A stretch of DNA of 53,990 nt, taken from a virus. Taxonomy: Duplodnaviria; Caudoviricetes. Shown here piece by piece: positions 916-50,341 of the stretch (its first letter is position 1; each line of letters begins with the position of its first letter). The notes beneath the pieces are model-generated. The model saw only the letters and a program-made list of their open reading frames with translations. It had not been told where the DNA came from and did not search any database. Position numbers and translations under genes: made by a program. Location of the stretch: positions 1 to 53,990 of the IMG/VR virus record IMGVR_UViG_3300036766_001883, one strand, 5' to 3'.

Positions 916-1510
916 CCGATTGCCGCGGGGCGCGCAGGAACGCGAAGTCATCAAGCAGAGGCAGGAGCGGGCATGGCAGTTCCACACGATCCGCAAGTTG
1001 ACGGTGCCGGAAGTCGCGCGGGTGCTCAATGTCTCGGAGCGGACCGTGCTGCGCGACCTCGCCAGTTCACGCCGGCGCAACCTGGCCGCCTTCCGCAAGG
1101 AGGCGAGCAAAGCCGACTGGCTCATCGCCAATGCGATGGAGGCGCTGGAAGAGGCGAATGCCATCATGCGGCAAGCGTGGACGGACCTCGTGACTGCACC
1201 AGCGGGCTCGCCGGTGAGGGCAGGTTTTCTGAACGTGCTGCTGAAGGCGGTGGGACGGCGCATCGAGATCCTCCAGTCACTCGGGCTGCTGGACAAAGCG
1301 CCGGAAGGGATACTGATAGGTGACCTCGATCTCAACCGGCTCAGCGACGACGAACTTGCGGGGACGCTTGCCGACATCCGTCAAAGAATTGACCAGGCTC
1401 GAGCGCCAAGGGGAATTGATTCTGGCGCAGCGGCTGAACCCCGCGCCCTGGATGCGGGGGAATCTGGATATCAGGACGAAGGCCAGGACGGTGATCCCCC
1501 TGCAGGCTAA
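902..1510 (+). CDS. terS: Terminase small subunit (HTH)
   Basis: HTH (LTVPEVARVLNVSERTVLRDL), C-terminal DLNRLSDDEL, directly upstream of and overlapping TerL; start may be 869. Confidence 0.75.
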   Translation: MRGDDRLPRGAQEREVIKQRQERAWQFHTIRKLTVPEVARVLNVSERTVLRDLASSRRRNLAAFRKEASKADWLIANAMEALEEANAIMRQAWTDLVTAPAGSPVRAGFLNVLLKAVGRRIEILQSLGLLDKAPEGILIGDLDLNRLSDDELAGTLADIRQRIDQARAPRGIDSGAAAEPRALDAGESGYQDEGQDGDPPAG

Positions 1511-2138
1511 CGCGGTGCAGACGCAATACCTCGAGGGGCGCAGCGCGCGCGACATCATCTGCAAGGCGCGCCAGGTCGGAATCACGACGATTGTGTGCGC
1601 GCTGTTCTTCCACGACACGATCACGAGGCCCAACACCGCATCGGTGATCGTCGCCCACGATCGAGAAAGCACGGAACTGGTCTTCCGCATCGTGCAGTTA
1701 TTCTGGCGGCGGCTGCCGCAGGCGATGAGGGAGAAGGCGGGGCCGCCGCATTTCTCGAGCAGGCGCGAGTTCTTCTGGCCGCTGATTAACAGCCAGTTCT
1801 ATATAGGGACCGCAGGTGCCGTAACATTCGGCCGCGGCCAGACGATCAACAACCTGCACTGCTGCGAGTTCGCCTTCTGGCCTCGAGCCGAAGAATCCAT
1901 GGCCACCCTCCTGGAGGCCGTGCCGGCGGATGGCCACGTGGTGATCGAGTCCACGGCGAACGGGATCGGCAACTACTTTCACACACTGTGGCGCGCGGCC
2001 GCGGACAAGCAGAGTGAGTTCAAGCCGCACTTCTTTCCCTGGTGGCTGGAGCCGAAGTATCGGCTCGAGCCCACCGATGAGGAGTTCGAAGCATGGCAGA
2101 GTCAATTGGGTCAACTGGGCGTCGCGGCACGACGCTGA
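1320..2138 (+). CDS. terL: Terminase large subunit, N-terminal ATPase part
   Basis: Walker A KARQVGITT, Walker B LHCCEFAFW, coupling motif IESTANG, FFPWW; start uncertain (1320 or TTG 1368). Confidence 0.9.
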   Translation: MTSISTGSATTNLRGRLPTSVKELTRLERQGELILAQRLNPAPWMRGNLDIRTKARTVIPLQANAVQTQYLEGRSARDIICKARQVGITTIVCALFFHDTITRPNTASVIVAHDRESTELVFRIVQLFWRRLPQAMREKAGPPHFSSRREFFWPLINSQFYIGTAGAVTFGRGQTINNLHCCEFAFWPRAEESMATLLEAVPADGHVVIESTANGIGNYFHTLWRAAADKQSEFKPHFFPWWLEPKYRLEPTDEEFEAWQSQLGQLGVAARR

Positions 2139-2596
2139 GGCCGCTGATCGCGGGGCTCTATGAAGACGGCAAATCGCTGAGCGAGGTCGGGGCGATTACT
2201 GGGTTGCATAGAGGCACTGTCAGGTATCACCTTCGGCAGATGGGTTTAGAGCGGAGACCTCAGCTAGAGGCGCTCAGAGCCGCCGGCGGGCGCATTTCGC
2301 AGCGCCTGAGAGGACGGCGCAGCCCAAACTACAAGGGAGGTCGAACTCACCAGAGTGACGGGTATATTCTGGTGCACATGCCTGGGCATCCGCGCACGGA
2401 TAAATCCGGGTACGTGTTTGAGCATCGGCTCGTCATGGAAAAGGCGGTGGGCCGGTTGCTATCTCAGCATGAGGTCGTGCACCACCGCAATGGGAGCAAG
2501 GGTGATAACCGTCTCGAGAACCTTGAGTTGCTGGCGAACCACGGCGAACATTTGGCGCGTCATGGGCACTTGAAGGGAAGTCATCATGGTAACTGA
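2093..2596 (+). CDS. HNH homing endonuclease with N-terminal HTH, inserted in terL
   Basis: GYVFEHRLVME..GRLL..EVVHHRNGSKGDNRLENLEL; RBS GAGGAG upstream. Confidence 0.92.
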   Translation: MAESIGSTGRRGTTLRPLIAGLYEDGKSLSEVGAITGLHRGTVRYHLRQMGLERRPQLEALRAAGGRISQRLRGRRSPNYKGGRTHQSDGYILVHMPGHPRTDKSGYVFEHRLVMEKAVGRLLSQHEVVHHRNGSKGDNRLENLELLANHGEHLARHGHLKGSHHGN

Positions 2597-3461
2597 AGTC
2601 ATTCCCCTGACCAGCGAAGAGGTGGCCCTGATCCACCACCATGGGTTATCGCTCTCGCAGATCAAGTGGGCGCGGCAGAGACAGCGGCAACTACGCGAGC
2701 AGTTTCTTCAGGAATATCCATGCGACGACGTCACTGCCTTCCTGACCACCGGCCGATCGTGCTTCGACGTGCAGGCTCTGCGGCAGACGCTGCAGGCGAT
2801 CGCGGGCGAATCCAAGCCGCGCAAGATCAGCGCACTGACCAAGGGAGAGGACGCGCTCTCCTTCGCGCCGGCTCAGCTGGTGGCCTGGCAGTTTCCCCAG
2901 CGCGACCGGCTCTACGTGATCGGGGCCGATGTCGGAGAGGGATTGCCAGGCGGCGATGCTTCCTGTGCCCAGGTACTGGACCGCGCCACCTGCCAGCAAG
3001 TGGCGGAACTGCACGGGCGGGTGCCGCCGGATCGGTTCGGACACATGCTCGACCGGCTGGGCCGCTGGTACAACATGGCGACCGTGGGCGTGGAGCGCAA
3101 CAACCACGGGCACTCGACCCTGAACACCTTGCGCAACGTATCCCGCTACCCGAGACTCTACTACTACATGCGCTACGACCGCACCGCGCACACGAACAAG
3201 CCGGTGCTGGGCTGGCCGACGGATGCGAGCACCAAGCCCATCCTGGTGGACGACCTGGCGGCGGCGATCAGCGGGGGCAACATCGTGATCCACTCGCCAG
3301 GGCTGGTGGACGAGTGCTTCACGTTCGTCTCTAAGTCGGGGGGCGTCCAGGAGGCGGAAGAGGGCAAGTACGACGACCGGGTCATGGCGATGGGGATCGC
3401 CTGGCAGGTGCGCAAGCGGGGCGTCGGGCGCGGGACGACGCAGAGGCCGGCGGGATGGTGA
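2586..3461 (+). CDS. terL: Terminase large subunit, C-terminal nuclease part
   Basis: FLQEYP..AFLTTGR, VIGADVGEG, VERNNHG, YDDRVMAMGIA (RNase H-fold nuclease). Confidence 0.9.
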   Translation: MVTEVIPLTSEEVALIHHHGLSLSQIKWARQRQRQLREQFLQEYPCDDVTAFLTTGRSCFDVQALRQTLQAIAGESKPRKISALTKGEDALSFAPAQLVAWQFPQRDRLYVIGADVGEGLPGGDASCAQVLDRATCQQVAELHGRVPPDRFGHMLDRLGRWYNMATVGVERNNHGHSTLNTLRNVSRYPRLYYYMRYDRTAHTNKPVLGWPTDASTKPILVDDLAAAISGGNIVIHSPGLVDECFTFVSKSGGVQEAEEGKYDDRVMAMGIAWQVRKRGVGRGTTQRPAGW

Positions 3462-3736
3462 ACCCGACGACGAGGCGCGTCCACTCTCTGCGATCGCTGG
3501 CAGAGGCAGTCGCGGCCCTCGCGTCGGAATTGCAGGTCGGCCTTCCCCCAGGGAGCGAATTGAGGATCGTCACCCCGTCCCAGGCGGCGCTGCTTGAGTT
3601 CTTTGCGGAGAACCCCTTCTGCACGATCGAACACCTCGAGATTCACGCCGGCGATCCACACCTCCTCGAGCTGCGGCTCAACGAGGTGGTGGCGGCGAAA
3701 ATCAAACTGCGGCCGCAGGAACAGAAGGTCGGTTGA
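3455..3736 (+). CDS. Small protein, DUF2292/YezD-like; candidate antitermination factor
   Basis: LLEFF..NPFCTIEHLEIHAGDP..KIKL pattern recalls DUF2292; directly upstream of RNA switch A. Confidence 0.45.
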   Translation: MVNPTTRRVHSLRSLAEAVAALASELQVGLPPGSELRIVTPSQAALLEFFAENPFCTIEHLEIHAGDPHLLELRLNEVVAAKIKLRPQEQKVG

Positions 3737-3761
3737 CATGGGCCGACCGATGGCATAGAAT
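3733..3761 (+). promoter_or_regulatory. Sigma70/SigA-type promoter
   Basis: TTGACA-N17-TAGAAT. Confidence 0.8.
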
Positions 3762-3768
3762 CGCCCGG

Positions 3769-3852
3769 ACAACTGAATAACGATGCTCGGCGACCGGAAA
3801 ACCGGAGGCGAGCCGATTGTCTCCCAAGCCTGGGAAACGCGGCTCGCTTTTT
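3769..3852 (+). promoter_or_regulatory. Attenuator A: boxA-like motif, antiterminator hairpin, overlapping intrinsic terminator
   Basis: ACAACTGAATAA, GCTCG-GCGA-CCGG-AAAA-CCGG-AGG-CGAGC; AGGCGAGCCG can instead pair with CGGCTCGCTT before a T tract. Confidence 0.75.
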
Positions 3853-3882
3853 CGTTTCGGGCGCCGCGGAAGGAAGAAAGGC

Positions 3883-5319
3883 ATGGCACTCGATCTGAAG
3901 ACGTATCCGCCGGCCGGGCACACCGACAGGGTGAACGGATACGCGCGTAACGAGAAGCTCTTTCTCGGCGATCACAAGATCGTCTTCGGAGTCCAGCCCG
4001 GCCGGTTCCAGATGCTGCGCTACATCGTCGCCAACTTCCCCGCGGCACTGTCGCGGCTGTGCGCGGACTTCCTCTTCGGGGAGGAGCCGGACTTCACCGC
4101 CGGCCAGGAGAAGGAGACCGAACGCGAGGCAGGGCAGGCAGCGCTCGACGAGATGATCAAGCGCAACAAGCTGCATGTGACCAACTACGAATCGGCGCTC
4201 TCCAACTCGTTCCGCGGCGACGCGGTCTATAAGGTGCGCTGGGGGATTCGTGATCCGGCGGCGGGAGCGGATCAGAAGCCGGAGGCGATCATCCAGGAGG
4301 TGCCGGCGACGATTTTCTTCCCCGAACTCGCGGAGGACGACGTGCGCCAGATCCTGCGGGTAACGATCGGCTGGACGAAGCGGGATCCCAACGACGCGCT
4401 CAAACAGTACCTGCGCATCGAGGAGCACGAGCCGGGCGTCGTCAGGCACCGGCTGTATCTGCTCACCGGGCAGACACCCGGGCAGCAGGTCGCCCTCGAG
4501 ACGCTCGAGCAGTACAAGGGGTTGCCGGATGAGGAGCTGACGGGCCTCACCGTGATCCCCGTCGTACACATACCCAACTTCAGGTACGGCTCGCGATTTT
4601 GGGGAATTAGCGATTACCAGGGGCTGGACTCGCTCTTCGAGGCGCTCAACAGCCGGCTGTCGCAGATCGAAGTGGTGCTTGATAAGCATACGGCGCCGAA
4701 GATCATATTGCCGCCGGGCTATGTTGACAGCGACGGCAAGGTCCGGTTCGACCAGATGGAAGCGGTCGAATTGGCGGCCGGGGATCAACCGCCGAGTTAT
4801 CTCACGTGGGAGGGGCAACTCCAGGCGGCGGGGGCGCAGTATGACCGCTTGCTGGACCTGCTGATGATCACGGCGGAGATCGCGCCCTCGGTCTTCGGAC
4901 TGGAGAAGTTCGGGCTCGCGGAGAGTGGACGCGCACTCCGGCTGAGGTTGCTGCGCACCCTGGCGAAGATCAACCGGAAGCGCCTGTACTACGATGCGGG
5001 GCTGAAGCAGGCACTGACGATCGCACAGATGCTCGATGTCACCAGGGGCGGCGGCAAGTATGCACCTGCGGAACCATCGATCGCCTGGGCGGACGGGTTG
5101 CCGGAGGACGTGGTAGAGATGGCCGAGATCGAGGTGCAGCGCATGGCTGCGGGCAACACGTCGGTAGAGTCATCCATCAGAAGGCTCGATGGTCCGGACG
5201 CGGTCGAGGCCGAGATGGACCGGATGGATGAGGAGGCCGGGCAGATGGCGGTCACCACTGGGGCCTCGCAGCGGCCCGGCCAATCGGCACAACCTGGCCA
5301 GAGGCAAGGGCAGCAGTGA
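3883..5319 (+). CDS. Portal protein (SPP1 gp6-like)
   Basis: ADFLFGEEP, IPVVHIPN, WGISDY, ESGRALRL, WADGLPED motifs; follows terL. Confidence 0.9.
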   Translation: MALDLKTYPPAGHTDRVNGYARNEKLFLGDHKIVFGVQPGRFQMLRYIVANFPAALSRLCADFLFGEEPDFTAGQEKETEREAGQAALDEMIKRNKLHVTNYESALSNSFRGDAVYKVRWGIRDPAAGADQKPEAIIQEVPATIFFPELAEDDVRQILRVTIGWTKRDPNDALKQYLRIEEHEPGVVRHRLYLLTGQTPGQQVALETLEQYKGLPDEELTGLTVIPVVHIPNFRYGSRFWGISDYQGLDSLFEALNSRLSQIEVVLDKHTAPKIILPPGYVDSDGKVRFDQMEAVELAAGDQPPSYLTWEGQLQAAGAQYDRLLDLLMITAEIAPSVFGLEKFGLAESGRALRLRLLRTLAKINRKRLYYDAGLKQALTIAQMLDVTRGGGKYAPAEPSIAWADGLPEDVVEMAEIEVQRMAAGNTSVESSIRRLDGPDAVEAEMDRMDEEAGQMAVTTGASQRPGQSAQPGQRQGQQ

Positions 5320-6714: not shown

Positions 6715-6742
6715 TTGACAGGGGGAGAAGTTGCGGTAGAAT
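6715..6742 (+). promoter_or_regulatory. Sigma70/SigA-type promoter
   Basis: TTGACA-N16-TAGAAT, same hexamers as the 3733 promoter. Confidence 0.7.
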
Positions 6743-6794: not shown

Positions 6795-6894
6795 ACAACC
6801 GAATAATACGGCCTGGCGACCAGAAAACTGGAGGCAGGCATCTCGCGATCCTCGAGGTGATGGAGGGTCATGGGATGTCTGCCTCTTTCTTTTT
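6795..6894 (+). promoter_or_regulatory. Attenuator B, paralogue of A
   Basis: ACAACCGAATAA, GCCTG-GCGA-CCAG-AAAA-CTGG-AGG-CAGGC; GAGGCAGGCATCTC/GGGATGTCTGCCTC stem plus TTTCTTTTT. Confidence 0.78.
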
Positions 6895-6909: not shown

Positions 6910-7092
6910 ATGCCTGTTCACGAGGTCGCCGGCGGTTGGAAATGGGGCAGGCACGGCAAGGTCTATCCGACCAAGGAACAGGCGGAGGAACAAGGCCGGG
7001 CGGCATTTGCGAGCGGTTACAGGGGCCGCAGGGTTCCGCGAGTACGCAAGTCGAGCCGGCGGTTCAAAGTCGGCCGTCGGGCAAGTAGGTGA
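6910..7092 (+). CDS. Small phage protein
   Basis: RBS GGAGG; GWKWG..GKVY..KEQA..QGRA pattern typical of small head-region proteins. Confidence 0.7.
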   Translation: MPVHEVAGGWKWGRHGKVYPTKEQAEEQGRAAFASGYRGRRVPRVRKSSRRFKVGRRASR

Positions 7093-7812: not shown

Positions 7813-7982
7813 TAGGGATTCGTTCCGCCCCCGCAAGAGCGGGGTCGGACTTGCCAGACGCATCCGGCGGGCGGTGAATCGCCGGGAGACGCCGACGGGC
7901 GGTGGCTAAGTCTGCCGAAGGCAGACCGCCATCCCGGCCCCCAAGGGGGCTTAGGGATCAACCACGGGAGGAGACCAGGATC

Positions 7983-8699
7983 ATGCCGAAGACACCAGAG
8001 GAACTCGAAGCCGAGCGCAAGGCGCAGGAAGCCGCAGACGAGGCCAAGCGAAAAGCCGACGAAGAGGAGGCGAAGCGCAAGGCGGATGCCGCGGCCGCAG
8101 CTGCCGCTGCGGAGAGGGGCGGCTTCAAGGTCACGCTGACCGATGCCCAACGCGCGGCCCTCCTCAGGGGCGAGCCGCTGGATCTCAGCGATGAGCAGTA
8201 CACGGGCGGCGTGCGCAAGGACCTCGAGGAACAGAGGCGGCTGCGGCGGGCGGCTGAGAAGCAGCTCGCCGAGATCGCCAAGCAGCGCGAAGAGGAAGAG
8301 AAGAAAGCCCTCGTAGATCAGGAGAAGTTCAAGGACCTCTACGAGAAGGAACAGGCAGCCCATGTGACGACCCAGGGGCGCCGGAAGACCGACGCCGTGC
8401 GGGCCGACTTCATGGTGGCTGCCGCGAGGGCCGGGGTCGTGGATATGGACCTCGCCTTCCTCGCTGCGAAGGCATCGCCTCTGTTCGAGAAGGTTGCGGT
8501 GGATGACGAGGGCGCGGTTACGGGCGTCAAGGAAGTCCTCGAGCAACTGGTCAAGGACAAACCATTCCTGGTTTCCGGACAGCAAAGGCAGACGTTTGGA
8601 GGGCCGAGCAACCCCAGCACGACGGAGACGCCGGCCCCGAAGACGCTCGCCGAGGCCGGAGATCAGCTCGAAACCAGACTGAAGACCGGCCAAATCTAA
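7983..8699 (+). CDS. Capsid scaffolding protein
   Basis: Coiled-coil, charged; LVKDKPFLV C-terminal motif; precedes the major capsid gene. Confidence 0.8.
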   Translation: MPKTPEELEAERKAQEAADEAKRKADEEEAKRKADAAAAAAAAERGGFKVTLTDAQRAALLRGEPLDLSDEQYTGGVRKDLEEQRRLRRAAEKQLAEIAKQREEEEKKALVDQEKFKDLYEKEQAAHVTTQGRRKTDAVRADFMVAAARAGVVDMDLAFLAAKASPLFEKVAVDDEGAVTGVKEVLEQLVKDKPFLVSGQQRQTFGGPSNPSTTETPAPKTLAEAGDQLETRLKTGQI

Positions 8700-8768
8700 C
8701 GGTGGGCGGATGAGTCGGACTGCAGGGCTGCGCTGCCACCTGTGGACCGGCGGATCGAGGAGATTGAA

Positions 8769-9752
8769 ATGGCAGCGACTTTGAGCACGCTGGCGGAGCT
8801 GATCGTGAAGCTCTATGCCGGCCCCTGGGTGGACGCGCTCACGAAGGAGACGTTCCTATTCACCCGACTCGCGGAGCGAGGGAACGTGAAGACCGGGAAA
8901 GGCAACGGGATCCGCTGGCCCGCGCGGTATGCGGGCAACGCACAGGTGGGTTCCTATGGCGATGGGGATGCGGCCGGCGGGGCGGGAAACCAGGCCGCGA
9001 AGGAAGCCTTCCTGGCCTGGAAGTTCAACAAGGCCGAGATCTCCATCACCGGACCGTCTCTGGCCGTTGGCGCGGCTGGCGGGATGGTAGTGGACCCGTT
9101 GCGGTTCGAGCTGGACAACGGCCTGCTCGACATGCGCGATGCGATCAACACACAGATTATGACCGACGGCACCGGCAACTCGGCGAAGGATATCACCGGC
9201 CTGCTGGCGGCCCTGGCGGACTCGGGGACCTATGCGGCACTCGACCGCAGCAGCTACACGTGGTGGAAAGCCTACGTGTCGGCGAACGGCGGCACGCCGC
9301 GGGCGCTCACCGAGGCGCTGATGCGCACGGTGAAGAAGACCGTCGAGGCGCGCGGCGGCGTCGTTACGGCGATCTACGCCGGCGCCGACCAGTGGTATGC
9401 ATACGGGGATCTGCTGCGCGCCGAACGTCGGCAGCAGGACCCGCGCACCCTGACGGGCGGCTACCAGGCGCTGGACTTCGAGGGCACGCCTCTCATCAAG
9501 GTGCCTGCGTACCCGACGGGCCGCATGGACTTCGTGGACGAGCGGCTGATCGAGTACCACATGCTGCCGGTCACGAGCGAGAATACCGTGATCGCCAGTC
9601 TGCGCAACGTAGTCGCCGTGCCGGGCGTGCCGGGCTTCGGCATCCTGGTGCTGGGCGCAACGAAGGACGCAGCGGACTTCTGGATCATCCACTACAGCCA
9701 GTTGGTAGTGCGCAACCCCTACAGGATGGGCGTCCTGAAGGATCTGTCCTAG
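8769..9752 (+). CDS. Major capsid protein (HK97 fold)
   Basis: Size and position; TDGTGNS..ITGL, GGYQALDFEGTPLIK, LVVRNPYRMGVL. Confidence 0.88.
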   Translation: MAATLSTLAELIVKLYAGPWVDALTKETFLFTRLAERGNVKTGKGNGIRWPARYAGNAQVGSYGDGDAAGGAGNQAAKEAFLAWKFNKAEISITGPSLAVGAAGGMVVDPLRFELDNGLLDMRDAINTQIMTDGTGNSAKDITGLLAALADSGTYAALDRSSYTWWKAYVSANGGTPRALTEALMRTVKKTVEARGGVVTAIYAGADQWYAYGDLLRAERRQQDPRTLTGGYQALDFEGTPLIKVPAYPTGRMDFVDERLIEYHMLPVTSENTVIASLRNVVAVPGVPGFGILVLGATKDAADFWIIHYSQLVVRNPYRMGVLKDLS

Positions 9753-12864: not shown

Positions 12865-12958
12865 ACAATCTGGCCCAAGCGAAAGCGGCCTGATCAGCCG
12901 TGGTCGCGAGACCAAGCCCTGACTCCGTTGCAACGGGCGGAGCCGGGGCTTTTCGTTT
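12865..12958 (+). terminator. Leader element C with intrinsic terminator before the major tail gene
   Basis: GCCCAAG..GGCC..GCC, then AAGCCCTGACTCCG/CGGAGCCGGGGCTT stem plus TTCGTTT. Confidence 0.6.
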
Positions 12959-21223: not shown

Positions 21224-21320
21224 AACTGAATAGATCGCCCAAGAGACCAGGGTGGCCACCCTGGGGCCGAAGGGCCGAGCCCGACAGACTCACGTGAGGG
21301 GTCTGCCGGGCTTTTCTTTT
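21224..21320 (+). terminator. Leader element D: boxA-like motif, hairpins and intrinsic terminator
   Basis: AACTGAATA, GCCCAAG, CCAGGGT-GGCC-ACCCTGG, AGCCCGACAGAC/GTCTGCCGGGCT plus TTTCTTTT. Confidence 0.68.
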
Positions 21321-21347
21321 GGGCGGCGATCCAAGGAGGAGGATGAG

Positions 21348-33627: not shown

Positions 33628-33912
33628 ATGAGGAAGCAGCGAGCGGCGAAGCGGGGAAACAAACCGAAGCCCGTCAGGCGCGCCTACATGCGCTCGCAGA
33701 GATGGCGGAAGATCGAGGCCGCCTACGGAAGTCCGCCGACCGACATTGTGCGCGGCCACCTGAGGGAGGGGCTGACTGTGACCGAGTCGGCGGGGAGGAT
33801 CCTGCGGGAGACGCGAATCAGCGTGAATCGCGCGACCCTGTATGCCTGGCTCGCCCAGGAGGCGGAACCGGGCCGGCCGTTGGTGGAGGCAGTCGCCGCA
33901 GCGGCAAAGTGA
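33628..33912 (+). CDS. Small HTH DNA-binding protein (regulator or excisionase candidate)
   Basis: LTVTESAGRI..ISVNRATLYAWL; adjacent to attP. Confidence 0.6.
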   Translation: MRKQRAAKRGNKPKPVRRAYMRSQRWRKIEAAYGSPPTDIVRGHLREGLTVTESAGRILRETRISVNRATLYAWLAQEAEPGRPLVEAVAAAAK

Positions 33913-34041
33913 CGGACGACAGATGGCGCAGGCGGTGACGATAGCGGGCGAGGGACTCGAGCGCAGGCTCGAGGCTGTTCTGTTCTGCCATGCACTCCTG
34001 CAGGCTCATGCGCCGGGCCGGTGGATGACGAACCGCGCACC

Positions 34042-34085
34042 TTGGGACCACGAGGTCGCCGGTTCAAGTCCGGCCGCCCCGACCA
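34042..34085 (+). mobile_element. attP core: 3' half of tRNA-Pro(TGG)
   Basis: TTGGGA-CCACG-AGGTC-GCCGG-TTCAAGT-CCGGC-CGCCCCG-ACCA gives anticodon loop, T arm, acceptor 3' strand and CCA; no 5' half; next to the integrase. Confidence 0.85.
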
Positions 34086-34255
34086 GCCTACTAGACTTCA
34101 GTGCCCCCTCCTTTTGCCGGGAGTCGCTCTCCTGTTACCCCACCGGCCCTCTAACGACCGATCATGCCCTGCCTTGCCCGGCGCATGGAATAGCACCCTT
34201 TGAGGATCGCGGCCAAAAAATCTCTGCGAACCGCGCACCTTGGGGAGGTGCTCAG

Positions 34256-35446
34256 ATGGGGAGTCTGCATTACGTCGTCCACTTCCTGCGCATGGAGCGG
34301 GCAGAGGGTAAAGCTTCATCCACACTTCGCAATCGCCACCGCGCCCTGAAAGCCCTCGATGCCTGGCTGGGATCGCTGGGGCTCACCGATAGCCAAGTCA
34401 GTCGCCTCGACCTGGCGGATTACGTCTGCTGCTTGCGGGAGAGGCATCCGGCGGACCAGGTCAACATTGACATCTCGGCCGCGAGGGTTTACTTCCGCTG
34501 GCTCGCCGAGATGCAGGTCCGCGGGGACAACCCGGCTGCCGCCCTGCGGTTCCTACGCGTGGAGCCGAAGCCGGTTGAGAGCCTGACGACGGAGGAGGTG
34601 CGCAGGTTGCTTTCCTTTGCCCGACGCACGCGGGGCCTGCGCTTTGGCACCGATCGAACTGCGGTGCTTGTAGTCTGCCTGATCGACACCGGCATGCGGC
34701 TGGGCGAAGCGCTGCGCCTGCGGGTCAGCGACCTGGACCTCATCCAGGGGCGACTGCAGGTGACAGCGACGAAGACGGGGAGGACACGGTCGGTACCGCT
34801 GTCGCCCATATTGCGGCGGCTGCTGGTGGCCTATCTGAGGCGCCGGGCGGCGCACTTGCAGCAGCGGAATCTGGCCGACTGCGGAGTACTCTTCATCGGC
34901 GAGCACGGCGGTCCCTGGACGATCGCCAATGCGGAGCGGTCGTGCAAGACGGTAGCCCGGCTCGCCGGCCTGAGGCGGGAGGTGTATCCACACCTGTTCC
35001 GGCACACGTTCGCCACGCAGTTGTTGGCGGGCGGGGCTTCGCTGATCGTGGTCATACTGTGGGGCGGATGGCAGAAGGTAACGACCGTGCAGCGCTATAC
35101 CCACATGTCGCCACAGCAGCAGGCAGACGTACACGCGGCGACCAGCCCGCTCATGCAGGCAAGCCGCCTGCAGTTCCTGATGCCAGAAGACCGAGGAGGT
35201 GATGATAACGACGGCGACCAGAAGCGAGGAGCGGTCAGGGCGCGAGCAGTCGGCGCGGCCCGGCGCGAGGACCGGAGTGCGCTGGTGCTAAGATCGAGTA
35301 AGGAGGCGAAAGCCCGCCGGAGCTGGCAGCCAGGCGGGCCATCGCGCACCCAGATAGGGCGACGGGATTATAGGCCGGGTCCGCTCGGCAGTCAAGCGCA
35401 GATTCGAGATCTATCCGCCGGGAGGCGGAGTAGGAGGACGAGATGA
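34256..35446 (+). CDS. int: Tyrosine recombinase/integrase (XerC/D-like)
   Basis: RBS GGAGGTG; DTGMRLGE (R), TKT (K), HLFRHTFA (HxxR), GGW, RYTH (Y). Confidence 0.92.
   Translation: MGSLHYVVHFLRMERAEGKASSTLRNRHRALKALDAWLGSLGLTDSQVSRLDLADYVCCLRERHPADQVNIDISAARVYFRWLAEMQVRGDNPAAALRFLRVEPKPVESLTTEEVRRLLSFARRTRGLRFGTDRTAVLVVCLIDTGMRLGEALRLRVSDLDLIQGRLQVTATKTGRTRSVPLSPILRRLLVAYLRRRAAHLQQRNLADCGVLFIGEHGGPWTIANAERSCKTVARLAGLRREVYPHLFRHTFATQLLAGGASLIVVILWGGWQKVTTVQRYTHMSPQQQADVHAATSPLMQASRLQFLMPEDRGGDDNDGDQKRGAVRARAVGAARREDRSALVLRSSKEAKARRSWQPGGPSRTQIGRRDYRPGPLGSQAQIRDLSAGRRSRRTR
35305..35395 (-). ncRNA. Putative ~55-nt antisense sRNA with its promoter
   Basis: TTGACT-N17-TATAAT (35395-35367), then GCCCGCC/GGCGGGC hairpin plus TTTC. 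Confidence 0.6.
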
Positions 35447-49811: not shown

Positions 49812-50341
49812 AACCTTTCACGGTCGAGATCTGGGACGGGCCGCTGCGAGACACGGCGGTTGTCACTTTTCCAGGGGCGGGGGATGAGTGCCGCTTGCCA
49901 CTGCTACACCACATCGTCGCGGTCGACCCCGAGGATCGTGACTACAAGGCACCCATGAGTTCCATTCTAGTCGAGATGACGCGTCGGCAGTGGCGCATTC
50001 TGCGGCAGCGGCTGGCGGCCGTCGGCAAGCGTCGTCTCGTCCTGGAGATCAGGGAGGGCAGTGGCCGAGGATATCGCGGGACGGAGAACAAGGTCATGAA
50101 ACGATTCCTGTTCCGTGCGGATTGTTTCTTTCGAGCGGACAGTATCGATGAGGCTTTTGAATTGCTCGGGAGGCACTTCCTAGCCTTGGCCACTGGGGAT
50201 GACCGCGGTCCAGAGTTCGTCGGTCAGATGAATATTGAGCCTGCAGACTGCTCGCCGGCGGGGGATAGCAGGGGCCAATCGTGTGATATAATGGACTCGA
50301 GGGCCGGCGATGATGATCCCGCGCGAGCAGATCCGCCCTAA
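49808..50341 (+). CDS. Hypothetical, probably chimeric ORF
   Basis: ATGA overlap; 3' half lies in the 298-bp repeat and has an internal RBS+ATG near 50096. Confidence 0.4.
   Translation: MKPFTVEIWDGPLRDTAVVTFPGAGDECRLPLLHHIVAVDPEDRDYKAPMSSILVEMTRRQWRILRQRLAAVGKRRLVLEIREGSGRGYRGTENKVMKRFLFRADCFFRADSIDEAFELLGRHFLALATGDDRGPEFVGQMNIEPADCSPAGDSRGQSCDIMDSRAGDDDPARADPP
50002..50299. repeat. 298-bp direct repeat, copy 1
   Basis: Identical to 53693-53990; ends with TG-n-TATAAT extended -10. Confidence 0.95.

What the first reader, a model, noticed from the sequence alone, without database searches (positions are those of the whole stretch)
3455..3852. Candidate new antitermination system: small DUF2292-like protein, promoter and boxA/hairpin/terminator switch
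Seen: the 93-aa ORF ends inside a consensus -35. The transcript then starts with ACAACTGAATAA, 4 nt, and a hairpin GCTCG-GCGA-CCGG-AAAA-CCGG-AGG-CGAGC whose 3' strand is also the 5' arm of an intrinsic terminator before the portal gene. The two folds are mutually exclusive. Known: lambda N/nut and rRNA antitermination use a boxA plus hairpin, and AACTGAA(T/C)A resembles rRNA-operon boxA-region sequence. Inference: the small protein, perhaps with Nus factors, stabilises the hairpin and switches on late genes. No Q, N or late sigma factor is recognisable in the genome.
Basis: partly seen in the sequence, partly recalled or inferred. Interest (0 to 1): 0.8.

Follow-up and report, generated by a model that had tools for sequence, protein, structure and literature searches.

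The report
Phage late-gene RNA terminator switch
Two short RNA leaders in this phage can fold either as a hairpin or as a transcription stop signal in front of the head genes, and comparison with related phages suggests that a tiny phage protein encoded next door chooses between the two folds.

Summary
After near-consensus sigma70-type promoters at 3733-3761 and 6715-6742 lie an 11-12 nt box (ACAACNGAATA), a hairpin (P1) and an intrinsic terminator whose 5' arm is P1's 3' arm. No Rfam family matches.

A covariance model of box plus P1 gave 115 hits in 148 loci from portal-related phages, 113 on the portal strand. They sit at two conserved sites: before the portal gene and before the scaffold/capsid block. 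P1 is 89.7% paired in 47 distinct sequences (36-47% in slid controls), and 8 of 11 pairs change on both sides. In 40 of 47 the terminator reuses the P1 arm (control 167 of 928).

The 93-aa protein is not DUF2292 by HMM and is absent from many motif-bearing relatives. These carry an unrelated small protein in the same slot.

The inner hairpin is the same at both sites of a genome (0.90 identity) but differs between genomes (0.49). Small-protein divergence tracks the distal hairpin core, not the portal gene between them (partial Mantel r 0.60, 0 of 10,000 permutations).

Verdict: this is a real, undescribed antiterminator/terminator leader. A phage-specific trans factor is likely, and the small protein is the best but unproven candidate. 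The boxA resemblance was not tested.

The parts
3455..3736 (+). ORF93, a small protein. Its start (ATG 3455) overlaps the stop of the terminase nuclease half, and its stop lies inside the -35 hexamer. It is the candidate specificity factor.
   Evidence: Coding GC profile. 7 relatives at E <= 1e-3 among 1.84 billion representatives. No Pfam or PHROG hit. AlphaFold2 model H-H-beta hairpin-H, pLDDT 75.
3733..3761 (+). Promoter PA: TTGACA, 17 nt, TAGAAT.
   Evidence: 11 of 12 matches. Equivalent promoters lie upstream of the box in 14 of 17 relatives examined.
3769..3780 (+). Box A: ACAACTGAATAA (conserved core ACAACNGAATA). It starts 7 nt after the -10, so it is probably the 5' end of the transcript.
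   Evidence: Nearly invariant in alignment A2 and in the 53-row alignment A5.
3785..3813 (+). Antiterminator hairpin P1-A: outer stem GCTCG/CGAGC, internal loop GCGA/AGG, inner stem CCGG/CCGG, loop AAAA.
   Evidence: Covariation.
3806..3857 (+). Intrinsic terminator tA. The stem spans 3806-3849 and its 5' arm is the 3' arm of P1-A. An inner hairpin TCCCA/TGGGA and the U tract TTTTTCGTTT follow.
   Evidence: centroid structure..
3883..5319 (+). Portal gene, the first gene downstream of tA.
   Evidence: Pfam SPP1_portal E 2.9e-08 and phrog_533 E 1.4e-47.
6715..6742 (+). Promoter PB: TTGACA, 16 nt, TAGAAT.
6795..6806 (+). Box B: ACAACCGAATAA, 52 nt after the -10 and preceded by an extra hairpin.
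6811..6839 (+). Antiterminator hairpin P1-B: GCCTG-GCGA-CCAG-AAAA-CTGG-AGG-CAGGC. It has the same loops as P1-A, and both stems are changed compensatorily.
6831..6894 (+). Intrinsic terminator tB: GAGGCAGGCAT pairs with ATGTCTGCCTC, followed by TTTCTTTTT. Its 5' arm overlaps the 3' arm of P1-B.
   Evidence: (-47.1 kcal/mol full fold).
6910..7092 (+). First ORF after tB (60 aa, phrog_31267). The scaffold (7902-8699) and major capsid (8742-9752) genes follow.
21224..21325 (+). Third leader carrying the box variant AACTGAATA, followed by different hairpins and a terminator, with no promoter. It belongs to the same box family but not to the P1 model.
   Evidence: R1 scores only 5 bits here. Conserved in G001 at 49863 with a compensatory stem change.

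Best explanation
The element is a factor-dependent transcription attenuator that gates the head genes of a temperate phage.

How it is built. Host RNA polymerase starts at strong sigma70-type promoters before the portal gene (site A) and before the scaffold/capsid block (site B). The leader RNA begins with, or soon reaches, a conserved single-stranded box, (G)ACAACNGAAUA. A hairpin P1 follows 0-5 nt later. It has an outer stem, a small GA/A-type internal loop, a 4-bp inner stem and a 4-5 nt loop. P1's 3' arm is also the 5' arm of a much stronger intrinsic terminator.

How it most likely works. By default the terminator wins and a short RNA of about 80-95 nt is made. This would keep the structural genes off, for instance in a lysogen. 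During lytic growth a phage-specific trans-acting factor binds the inner part of P1 (loops and bulges) and holds it closed, so the base of the terminator cannot form and polymerase reads on. The nearly invariant box is a second contact, perhaps for a host factor or the polymerase.

Candidate factor. The best candidate is the small protein encoded directly upstream of promoter PA. This is ORF93 here and an unrelated roughly 70-aa helix-plus-beta-hairpin protein in other relatives.

Shown here: the anatomy, its conservation, covariation of P1, arm sharing with the terminator, within-genome identity of the A and B cores, and co-variation of the small protein with the distal core.

Inferred: default termination, binding, the identity of the factor and the role of the box.

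My odds: real RNA switch about 0.85-0.9; phage-specific trans factor about 0.65-0.7; the small protein is that factor about 0.45.
For: Conservation and structure:
1. Model R1 (box plus P1) gives 115 hits at E <= 1 in 148 portal-related loci (the window scanned with them), 113 on the portal strand. They fall about 100 nt upstream of the portal start and 3-5 kb downstream of it. The viral and metagenome sets overlap; the 107 hits of 15.7 bits or more reduce to 63 unique 61-mers.
2. P1 covaries. In 15 seed sequences 86.6% of cells pair and 7 of 11 pairs change on both sides. In 47 distinct hits 89.7% pair against 35.8-47.0% in slid controls, 8 of 11 pairs change on both sides, and 0 of 500 shuffles reach the paired percentage or the covariation score. 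Many G-U pairs occur (21 U-G at one outer pair, 8 at one inner pair), which points to RNA rather than a DNA palindrome.
3. In 40 of 47 distinct hits a 7-mer fully complementary to the P1 3' arm lies downstream, directly followed by a U tract. With arms from other instances the figure is 167 of 928. A cruder fold-based script found a terminator in 55 of 63 and an arm overlap of at least 4 nt in 48 of 63.
4. A TTGAC(A/G)-16/17-TAnnnT promoter precedes the box in 14 of 17 instances examined. Its -10 ends 4-12 nt before the box in 9 and 25-52 nt before it in 5.

Evidence for a phage-specific trans factor:
5. The A and B cores are 0.90 identical within a genome and 0.49 between genomes (13 genomes, 0 of 20,000 permutations). 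Outer stems are 0.72 against 0.67. In the window, L039, L091 and L115 the inner stems of A and B differ while the unpaired positions are identical or nearly so (1.00, 1.00, 1.00, 0.75).
6. The window and L145 have sister portals (100/100 support) and near-identical outer stem and terminator in leader B. Their 19-nt cores are nevertheless unrelated at both sites.

Evidence for the small protein:
7. ORF93 homologues occur in exactly the loci whose site-A hairpin has the AWAA tetraloop: 10 loci plus the window.
8. Of 65 window genes, only ORF93 hits G004 (same loops) and none of G001, G006 or G007.
9. The partial Mantel correlation between small-protein distance and B-core distance, given portal distance, is 0.60, with 0 of 10,000 permutations as high. 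The correlation of small-protein distance with portal distance is 0.03.
10. L044 has a portal only 0.06 distant from L039 and L091 but another small protein and another core at both sites.

Other:
11. An integrase lies at 33842-35446 and several relatives are classed as proviruses, so a default-off design makes sense.
Against: - No RNA data exist. The transcription start, termination at the U tract and read-through are all unobserved (one search listed no RNA run).
- The small proteins are near neutral (pI 5.0-9.2; ORF93 pI 6.0, with K+R 9 against D+E 11). They match no known RNA-binding fold: Foldseek best E 1.0 and 3.7, VIA-align best Z 2.8.
- The ORF93 family and the other small-protein family are not detectably homologous (hhalign probability 0.87%). 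'One factor family' is therefore an assumption based on position and a similar helix-plus-beta-hairpin core.
- The co-variation could arise without function. The small gene and core A are adjacent and would move together, and core B could be copied from core A by short-patch gene conversion.
- The 13 genomes include close pairs (L039/L091, L033/L037), so the independent contrasts are few, about 3 on the portal tree.
- Other early genes also differ between the compared genomes and could encode the true factor.
- The small gene follows the terminase genes and is translationally coupled to them. That position would equally suit a packaging accessory protein.
- The third box-bearing leader (21224) lacks P1, so the box can work, if it works, without the hairpin.
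Confidence: 0.55

Rival explanations
1. RNA-only element. Box plus P1 acts by itself in cis, either as a put-like RNA that modifies the polymerase or as a kinetic attenuator that sets a fixed fraction of read-through. No phage protein is involved.
For: The element lies at or near the 5' end of the transcript, like known cis-acting antiterminator RNAs. RNA-only antiterminators exist in mobile elements: canT (abstract of PMC11658703) and conAn2 at short range (passages of PMC8191782). No recognisable regulator gene was found.
Against: An RNA that contacts a conserved host polymerase should not need a genome-specific core. Yet cores differ between close relatives and match within genomes. A constitutive strong promoter with fixed read-through would leave head genes on in a lysogen.
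Confidence: 0.15
2. Small RNA genes. Each promoter-box-hairpin-terminator unit mainly makes a stable RNA of about 80-95 nt. Its conserved single-stranded 5' box is a seed that pairs with host or phage mRNAs, and read-through is secondary.
For: The layout (strong promoter, conserved unpaired 5' end, hairpins, Rho-independent terminator) is that of many trans-acting small RNAs. A short RNA terminated just after a constitutive late phage promoter has a regulatory role in Shiga-toxin phages (abstract of PMC7547250 as listed).
Against: This does not explain why the hairpin's 3' arm is reused as the terminator arm in 40 of 47 instances, nor why the units always sit directly before structural genes on the coding strand. 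No target was sought or found. The two roles are not exclusive.
Confidence: 0.1
3. DNA-level control of the Q type. The box, which lies at +1 to +11 in most copies, and the palindromic core are DNA sites where a phage protein loads onto a promoter-proximally paused polymerase or blocks it.
For: A constitutive promoter with an immediate terminator before late genes, plus a small gene directly upstream of that promoter, is the lambda Q / PR' / tR' layout (recalled textbook knowledge; abstracts listed). The box is 4-12 nt after the -10 in 9 of 17 instances. The inner stem is also an inverted repeat in DNA.
Against: The box lies 25-52 nt from the -10 in 5 of 17 instances and has no promoter at 21224, but it keeps a fixed 0-5 nt distance to P1. 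G-U pairs are frequent in both stems. Half-site sequences vary within a genome while the loops stay the same. No Q family was found.
Confidence: 0.1
4. Ribosome-mediated attenuation. A ribosome finishing the small ORF, or a 4-5 codon mini-ORF, at the TAA/TAG inside the box covers the 5' arm of P1, so translation decides between P1 and the terminator.
For: In 10 of 18 relatives examined the small ORF ends at the stop codon inside the box. Several B copies read (A/G/T)TG ACA ACN GAA TAA.
Against: In the window ORF93 ends 32 nt before the box, and in the L036 group 47-128 nt before it. Window copy A has no in-frame start between the -10 and the box. The box holds stops in two frames in a GC-rich genome, so ORFs would end there by chance. 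The base before the box is G whatever the preceding letters, which suggests an extended box rather than start codons.
Confidence: 0.05
5. Small-molecule riboswitch.
For: The terminator/antiterminator layout is that of many riboswitch expression platforms.
Against: The candidate aptamer is only about 29 nt. Its core sequence differs between close relatives, unlike a ligand pocket. No Rfam family matches.
Confidence: 0.03

Closest known systems
Lambda-type N / nut antitermination (boxA plus boxB hairpin; nutL and nutR in one genome)
   Same: A short conserved single-stranded box is followed by a small hairpin. There are two copies per genome. The hairpin core is identical within a genome but differs between related phages, while the box is shared. 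The candidate factor is a small phage protein.
   Different: Here the hairpin's 3' arm is itself the 5' arm of the terminator, giving a local switch. The elements precede late structural genes, not early genes. ORF93 has no arginine-rich motif and is slightly acidic. The box sequence does not resemble the E. coli boxA as I recall it (not tested). Processivity is unknown.
BglG / SacY / LicT family with RAT antiterminator hairpins
   Same: An imperfect hairpin of about 29 nt with internal loops overlaps the 5' arm of an intrinsic terminator and is thought to be stabilised by a protein. This is the same logic and the same size.
   Different: No CAT RNA-binding domain or PRD was found in ORF93 or any scanned protein. 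The setting is a phage, and there is an additional conserved 5' box.
Lambda Q with PR' and tR'
   Same: A strong constitutive promoter is followed at once by a terminator before the late genes. A small regulator gene lies directly upstream of that promoter, and a short terminated RNA is the default product.
   Different: No Q family was detected. The conserved elements behave as RNA: covariation with G-U pairs and variable distance from the promoter.
conAn bipartite antitermination of Gram-positive conjugative plasmids (PMC8191782; abstract and passages read)
   Same: A protein gene is followed immediately by a cis RNA element at the head of a long operon with internal terminators. Both components are poorly conserved in sequence between elements.
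   Different: The paper gives conAn2 as about 260-600 bp. It acts on separate downstream terminators and works alone at short range, with ConAn1 as a processivity factor acting only in cis. Here the RNA is about 45 nt, overlaps its terminator, and a second copy 3 kb away would need the factor in trans.
HK022 put and Tn916 canT RNA antiterminators (canT: abstract of PMC11658703 read; put: recalled)
   Same: A promoter-proximal structured RNA of a mobile element allows read-through of terminators.
   Different: Those act without an element-specific protein and do not share an arm with the terminator. The genome-specific cores seen here argue for a specific partner.

Membership tests
Any Rfam 15 RNA family | Match to a curated covariance model at its gathering score | tested here: not met
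   0 matches in the whole window at gathering thresholds. With permissive filters on 3600-4000 the only match is mir-967 at E 7.2, 14.6 bits against a gathering score of 70.
Intrinsic (Rho-independent) terminator | GC-rich stem directly followed by a U tract | tested here: met
   40 of 47 distinct family members have the complementary arm plus at least 5 T in 8. The simple scan missed both window terminators because their loops exceed its 3-8 nt limit.
Antiterminator/terminator attenuator | An upstream helix shares nucleotides with the terminator stem, and the sharing is conserved | tested here: met
   The P1 3' arm is the terminator 5' arm in 40 of 47 instances against 167 of 928 in the control.
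DUF2292 / YezD (PF10055) | Pfam HMM match at or above 22 bits | tested here: not met
   ORF93 has no family at E <= 1, and 0 of 8 members of its family match any Pfam family. The unrelated small proteins of other relatives gave 2 of 10 sub-threshold hits (14.3 and 13.2 bits) and an Atlas structural lead (TM 0.43/0.51 to a YezD cluster). For those proteins the question stays inconclusive.
Lambda N / nut | Arginine-rich N-terminal peptide that binds a boxB hairpin | tested here: not met
   ORF93 has K+R 9 of 93, pI 6.0 and no arginine-rich stretch beyond RR at residues 7-8.
Lambda N / nut | boxA bound by NusB/NusE | not testable with these tools
The host is unknown and no rRNA leader was available for comparison.
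BglG/SacY/LicT (CAT-PRD antiterminators) | CAT RNA-binding domain and PRD domains | tested here: not met
   No such Pfam hit in ORF93 or in 39 other window proteins scanned. Not every window ORF was scanned.
Q antiterminators | Phage_antitermQ (PF06530) or Antiterm (PF03589) domain | tested here: not met
   Six-frame HMM search of the complete 53,990-bp record found 0 matches at E <= 1 for either family.
NusG/RfaH/LoaP paralogues and late sigma factors | NGN domain (PF02357); Sigma70 region 2 (PF04542) | tested here: not met
   0 matches at E <= 1 in six frames. Weak sub-threshold Sigma70_r4/HTH hits occur only in the HNH protein and the terS-position protein.

The most novel reading that the evidence does not exclude
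A previously undescribed bipartite antitermination system of temperate phages. Tiny proteins with a core of about 50 residues (one helix plus one beta hairpin), unrelated to N, Q, CAT or NusG, each recognise the loops of a 19-nt hairpin cassette in two or more late-gene leaders. By holding that hairpin closed they prevent the overlapping terminator from forming. The invariant 11-nt box recruits a host factor. Protein and cassette are exchanged together between phages as a specificity module, much as N and boxB are in lambdoid phages.
Probability: 0.4. Interest if true: 0.8.

Novelty: new variant of a known kind. Interest (0 to 1): 0.68.

Why it matters
How most uncultured phages time their late genes is unknown, because N, Q and late sigma factors are often absent. 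This finding gives a defined and compact candidate system. It comprises a 45-nt RNA, a terminator and a 70-93 aa protein, and it comes with natural specificity variants (at least 9 core classes) that make direct swap experiments possible. The RNA motif alone is a new conserved cis-regulatory family found in dozens of sediment-derived phage and prophage contigs. If the protein link holds, it adds a new family of hairpin-specific antiterminators. It would also supply small orthogonal protein-RNA switches that could be useful as genetic parts.

Tried and rejected
- Rfam found nothing.
- Exact and relaxed DNA patterns in IMG/VR. The strict core gave 0 hits. The relaxed box-plus-loop pattern gave 25 hits, all AT-rich chance matches without stems. 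A third pattern gave 4 stretches: two were already-known relatives and two were chance, scoring 11.9 and 8.8 bits with R1. The motif was therefore found only through portal relatives, and its true range is not established.
- A single-protein portal scan of IMG/VR found nothing. The alignment-based scans worked. The 7 genome-contig loci have distant portals (27-37% identity) and no R1 hit.
- Word-index search with ORF93 returned only itself.
- Structure searches for ORF93 and for the other small protein gave no match better than Foldseek E 1.0 / 3.7 or VIA-align Z 2.8. This shows neither a new fold nor the absence of a known one.
- The PDB profile search had a best E of 0.39.
- The Atlas gave no usable hit for ORF93.
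- PHROGs matched 0 of 15 members of the other small-protein family.
- Profile-profile comparison of the two small-protein families was not significant.
- No RNA holder was listed among public runs.
- I looked by eye for pairing between the box and downstream sequence (pseudoknot, terminator loop, U tract, ribosome-binding site). Nothing was consistent across instances (sequences), so I dropped the idea.
- The mini-ORF / leader-peptide idea is rejected as the general mechanism (see the rival explanations).
- Literature: 'DUF2292' gave 2 papers, both seen only as search listings and neither about function. 'YezD' gave only irrelevant matches. A 5-term antitermination search listed 20 of 86 papers, none describing this motif by title or abstract. 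I do not claim that the motif is unpublished beyond these three searches and the Rfam result. Supplementary files were not consulted.
- Complex prediction was not used, because no protein-protein claim is made.
Full report
**What the window is.** The window is a complete IMG/VR virus record of 53,990 bp with direct terminal repeats. Its G+C is about 0.65 and almost all genes lie on the + strand.

The left end encodes, in order:
- a DNA methylase;
- a terS-position protein;
- a large terminase split by an HNH gene;
- the 93-aa ORF of the finding;
- the portal protein;
- a MuF-like minor head protein;
- scaffold, major capsid and tail genes.

An integrase at 33842-35446 marks the phage as temperate.

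- The ORF's stop lies inside TTGACA at 3733-3738.
- TAGAAT follows after 17 nt.
- ACAACTGAATAA starts 7 nt after the -10.
- After 4 more nt comes the hairpin at 3785-3813.
- The hairpin's 3' arm pairs alternatively with 3841-3847, which is followed by a U tract, 30 nt before the portal ATG.

The promoter scores 11 of 12, as does a second one at 6715-6742. The box and the hairpin core each occur exactly twice in the window, against 0.07 and 0.02 expected. The second copy keeps all unpaired nucleotides and changes both stems compensatorily. Folding gives the terminator as the stable state and the hairpin as the alternative at -16.7 kcal/mol. No Rfam family matches.

**It is a conserved RNA family.**
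- Direct pattern scans of IMG/VR found nothing real.
- I therefore collected relatives through the portal protein, which has 299 homologues at E <= 1e-10. The alignment-based scans (alignment) gave 61 metagenome, 80 viral and 7 genome loci.
- A simple search for the box found it again in many of them, followed by hairpins of different sequence but the same shape.
- A covariance model of box plus hairpin, built from 15 instances, gave 115 hits at E <= 1 over those 148 loci, scanned together with the window. Of these, 113 lie on the portal strand.
- The hits fall at two sites: about 100 nt before the portal start, and 3-5 kb after it, before the scaffold/capsid block.
- The two collections overlap. 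The 107 hits of 15.7 bits or more reduce to 63 unique sequences; I left the 8 weaker rows out of that count.

**Covariation supports the hairpin.**
- In 47 distinct sequences 89.7% of cells pair, against 36-47% when the partner is slid.
- 8 of 11 pairs change on both sides.
- No shuffle of 500 reaches the paired percentage or the covariation score. The count of pairs with double changes is reached by 84 of 500 shuffles.
- The seed alignment gives 86.6% paired and 7 of 11 pairs changed on both sides.
- The alignment was fitted to the model, so it leans towards this structure.

**The terminator and its overlap with the hairpin are conserved too.**
- In 40 of 47 distinct instances a 7-mer fully complementary to the hairpin's 3' arm lies downstream, directly followed by a U tract. 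With arms from other instances this happens in 167 of 928 trials.
- A cruder fold-based script found terminators in 55 of 63 and arm sharing in 48 of 63. Some of its failures are procedural, the window's own copy A among them.
- A sigma70-type promoter precedes the box in 14 of 17 instances examined. Its -10 ends 4-12 nt before the box in 9 and 25-52 nt before it in 5.

The unit is therefore: strong promoter, box at or near the 5' end, antiterminator hairpin, terminator, structural gene.

**The small protein.**
- ORF93 looks coding but belongs to a very small family: 7 relatives at E <= 1e-3 among 1.84 billion representatives, and only itself in the word-index search.
- Neither it nor any of its 7 relatives hits a Pfam family at E <= 1, so the DUF2292 label is not supported for it.
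- By tblastn it occurs in only 10 of the fetched loci.
- A profile of the family finds nothing in the CheckV-complete record G001, which has two strong copies of the motif. It also finds nothing in G006 and G007. The positive control G004 scores E 3.7e-37.

**The slot is never empty.**
- In the other relatives the roughly 220 nt between the terminase stop and the box hold a different small ORF of 69-85 aa. Its start overlaps the terminase stop, as in the window. Its tail runs across the promoter: the conserved PPLTG peptide is the -35 hexamer read as codons.
- This second family gives sub-threshold DUF2292 hits in 2 of 10 members and an Atlas lead to YezD-like models.
- It is not detectably related to the ORF93 family.
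- AlphaFold2 models share a helix followed by a long beta hairpin: ORF93 residues 41-75, pLDDT 75; the other family residues 2-48, pLDDT 84.5.
- Neither model matches a solved fold.

**Evidence for a phage-specific partner.**
- The inner part of the hairpin (bulges, 4-bp stem, loop) is 0.90 identical between sites A and B of one genome and 0.49 identical between genomes (13 genomes, 0 of 20,000 permutations). The outer stems are 0.72 against 0.67.
- In four genomes the inner stems of A and B differ by paired changes while the loops stay the same. That argues against simple recent copying.
- On a portal tree the window is sister to L145 with full support. Their B leaders share outer stem and terminator almost letter for letter, yet the 19-nt cores are unrelated at both sites and the small proteins belong to different families.
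- L044 has a portal only 0.06 distant from L039 and L091, but another small protein and another core at both sites.
- ORF93 homologues are found exactly where the hairpin has an A(A/U)AA tetraloop.
- Of 65 window genes, ORF93 is the only one with a hit in G004 (same loops) and none in G001, G006 or G007. A six-frame repeat listed only out-of-frame shadows of genes that are present in all the genomes. It left ORF93 out because its stop-to-stop segment also covers an off-frame stretch of the terminase gene, which hits G001; the ORF93 part proper hits G004 only.
- A partial Mantel test gives r = 0.60 between small-protein distance and B-core distance with portal distance held fixed, and 0 of 10,000 permutations reach it. 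Small-protein and portal distances are uncorrelated (0.03).

**Limits of that evidence.**
- The genomes are few and partly close kin. On the tree the ORF93/tetraloop state needs 3 changes, of which well-supported branches force at least 2.
- The small gene and core A are neighbours and would travel together. Core B could follow by gene conversion.
- Other early genes also differ between the compared genomes.
- The small proteins are near neutral.
- Nothing here shows binding, termination or read-through, and no RNA run was listed.

**Mechanism proposed.**
- By default the terminator forms and a short RNA is made, keeping head genes off.
- A phage-specific factor, most likely the small protein, binds the hairpin core and keeps the terminator's base from forming.
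- The invariant box is a second contact, possibly for a host factor.
- A third leader at 21224 carries the box before different hairpins and a terminator, without a promoter. It is conserved in G001 with a compensatory change, so the box seems to be a module of its own.
- No NusG paralogue, sigma region 2 or Q family is present in six frames.

**Comparison with known systems.**
- The logic is that of RAT/BglG-type attenuators (a hairpin overlapping a terminator) combined with the nut-like pattern of a shared box and a phage-specific hairpin present twice per genome.
- The genomic layout recalls lambda Q/PR'/tR'.
- conAn of conjugative plasmids is the nearest 'small gene plus adjacent RNA' system. 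Its RNA is 260-600 bp, acts on separate terminators and works alone at short range (PMC8191782, abstract and passages). canT is described as an RNA-only antiterminator (PMC11658703, abstract).
- The defining proteins of these families were sought and not found. The element is therefore filed as a new variant of factor-dependent attenuation, not as a member of any of them.

Noticed in passing
window 1320-3461: The large terminase is in two ORFs: an ATPase half (1320-2138) and a nuclease half (2586-3461, Terminase_6C). An HNH endonuclease gene (2093-2596) lies between them and overlaps both. Relatives have one uninterrupted terminase of about 540 aa, so the HNH gene is an insertion in this lineage.
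   Followed up: partly
window 21224-21325; G001 at 49863: A third leader carries the box variant AACTGAATA, different hairpins and a terminator, and has no promoter. The sequence CGCCCAAGAG, just after the box, can pair with CTTTTGGGCG, which overlaps the end of the U tract. It is conserved in G001 with a compensatory stem change (CCAGGGT/ACCCTGG to CCGGGGT/ACCCCGG).
   Followed up: partly
window 12865-12958: A terminator lies just before the major tail gene and is flanked by GCCCAAGCG and CGTTTGGGC, which can pair around it. The layout matches the third leader but has no box.
   Followed up: no
L145:4664-4879, L044:4627-4881, L110:2467-2703 and others (alignment A4): The small proteins of many relatives end in a conserved PPLTG peptide. 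This is the -35 hexamer TTGAC(A/G) read as Leu-Thr, so the gene's tail overprints the promoter. In 10 of 18 loci the ORF stops at the TAA/TAG inside the box.
   Followed up: partly
L039, L042, L098 (ORF93 homologue 3-4 kb upstream of the portal): In these relatives about 3 kb of extra genes (ORFs of 261-381 aa) sit between the ORF93 homologue and promoter PA. Adjacency of the small gene and the leader is therefore not obligatory.
   Followed up: no
L061:4485-4655, L110:2248-2451, L113/L114: A 56-74 aa protein with four-cysteine zinc-ribbon motifs (CGNCG ... CPEC) lies just upstream of the small protein in one sub-clade.
   Followed up: no
L116:3205 and 4775; L086:4009 and 4145: Some relatives carry a third copy of the box-hairpin-terminator unit 1.6 kb after site B, or two units in tandem 136 nt apart.
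   Followed up: no
window 33842-35446; records G004-G007: The window has a tyrosine integrase (Phage_integrase, E 1.5e-28). IMG/VR classes several relatives as proviruses. Two portal relatives carry the source name Armatimonadota, which is a lead to the host only.
   Followed up: no
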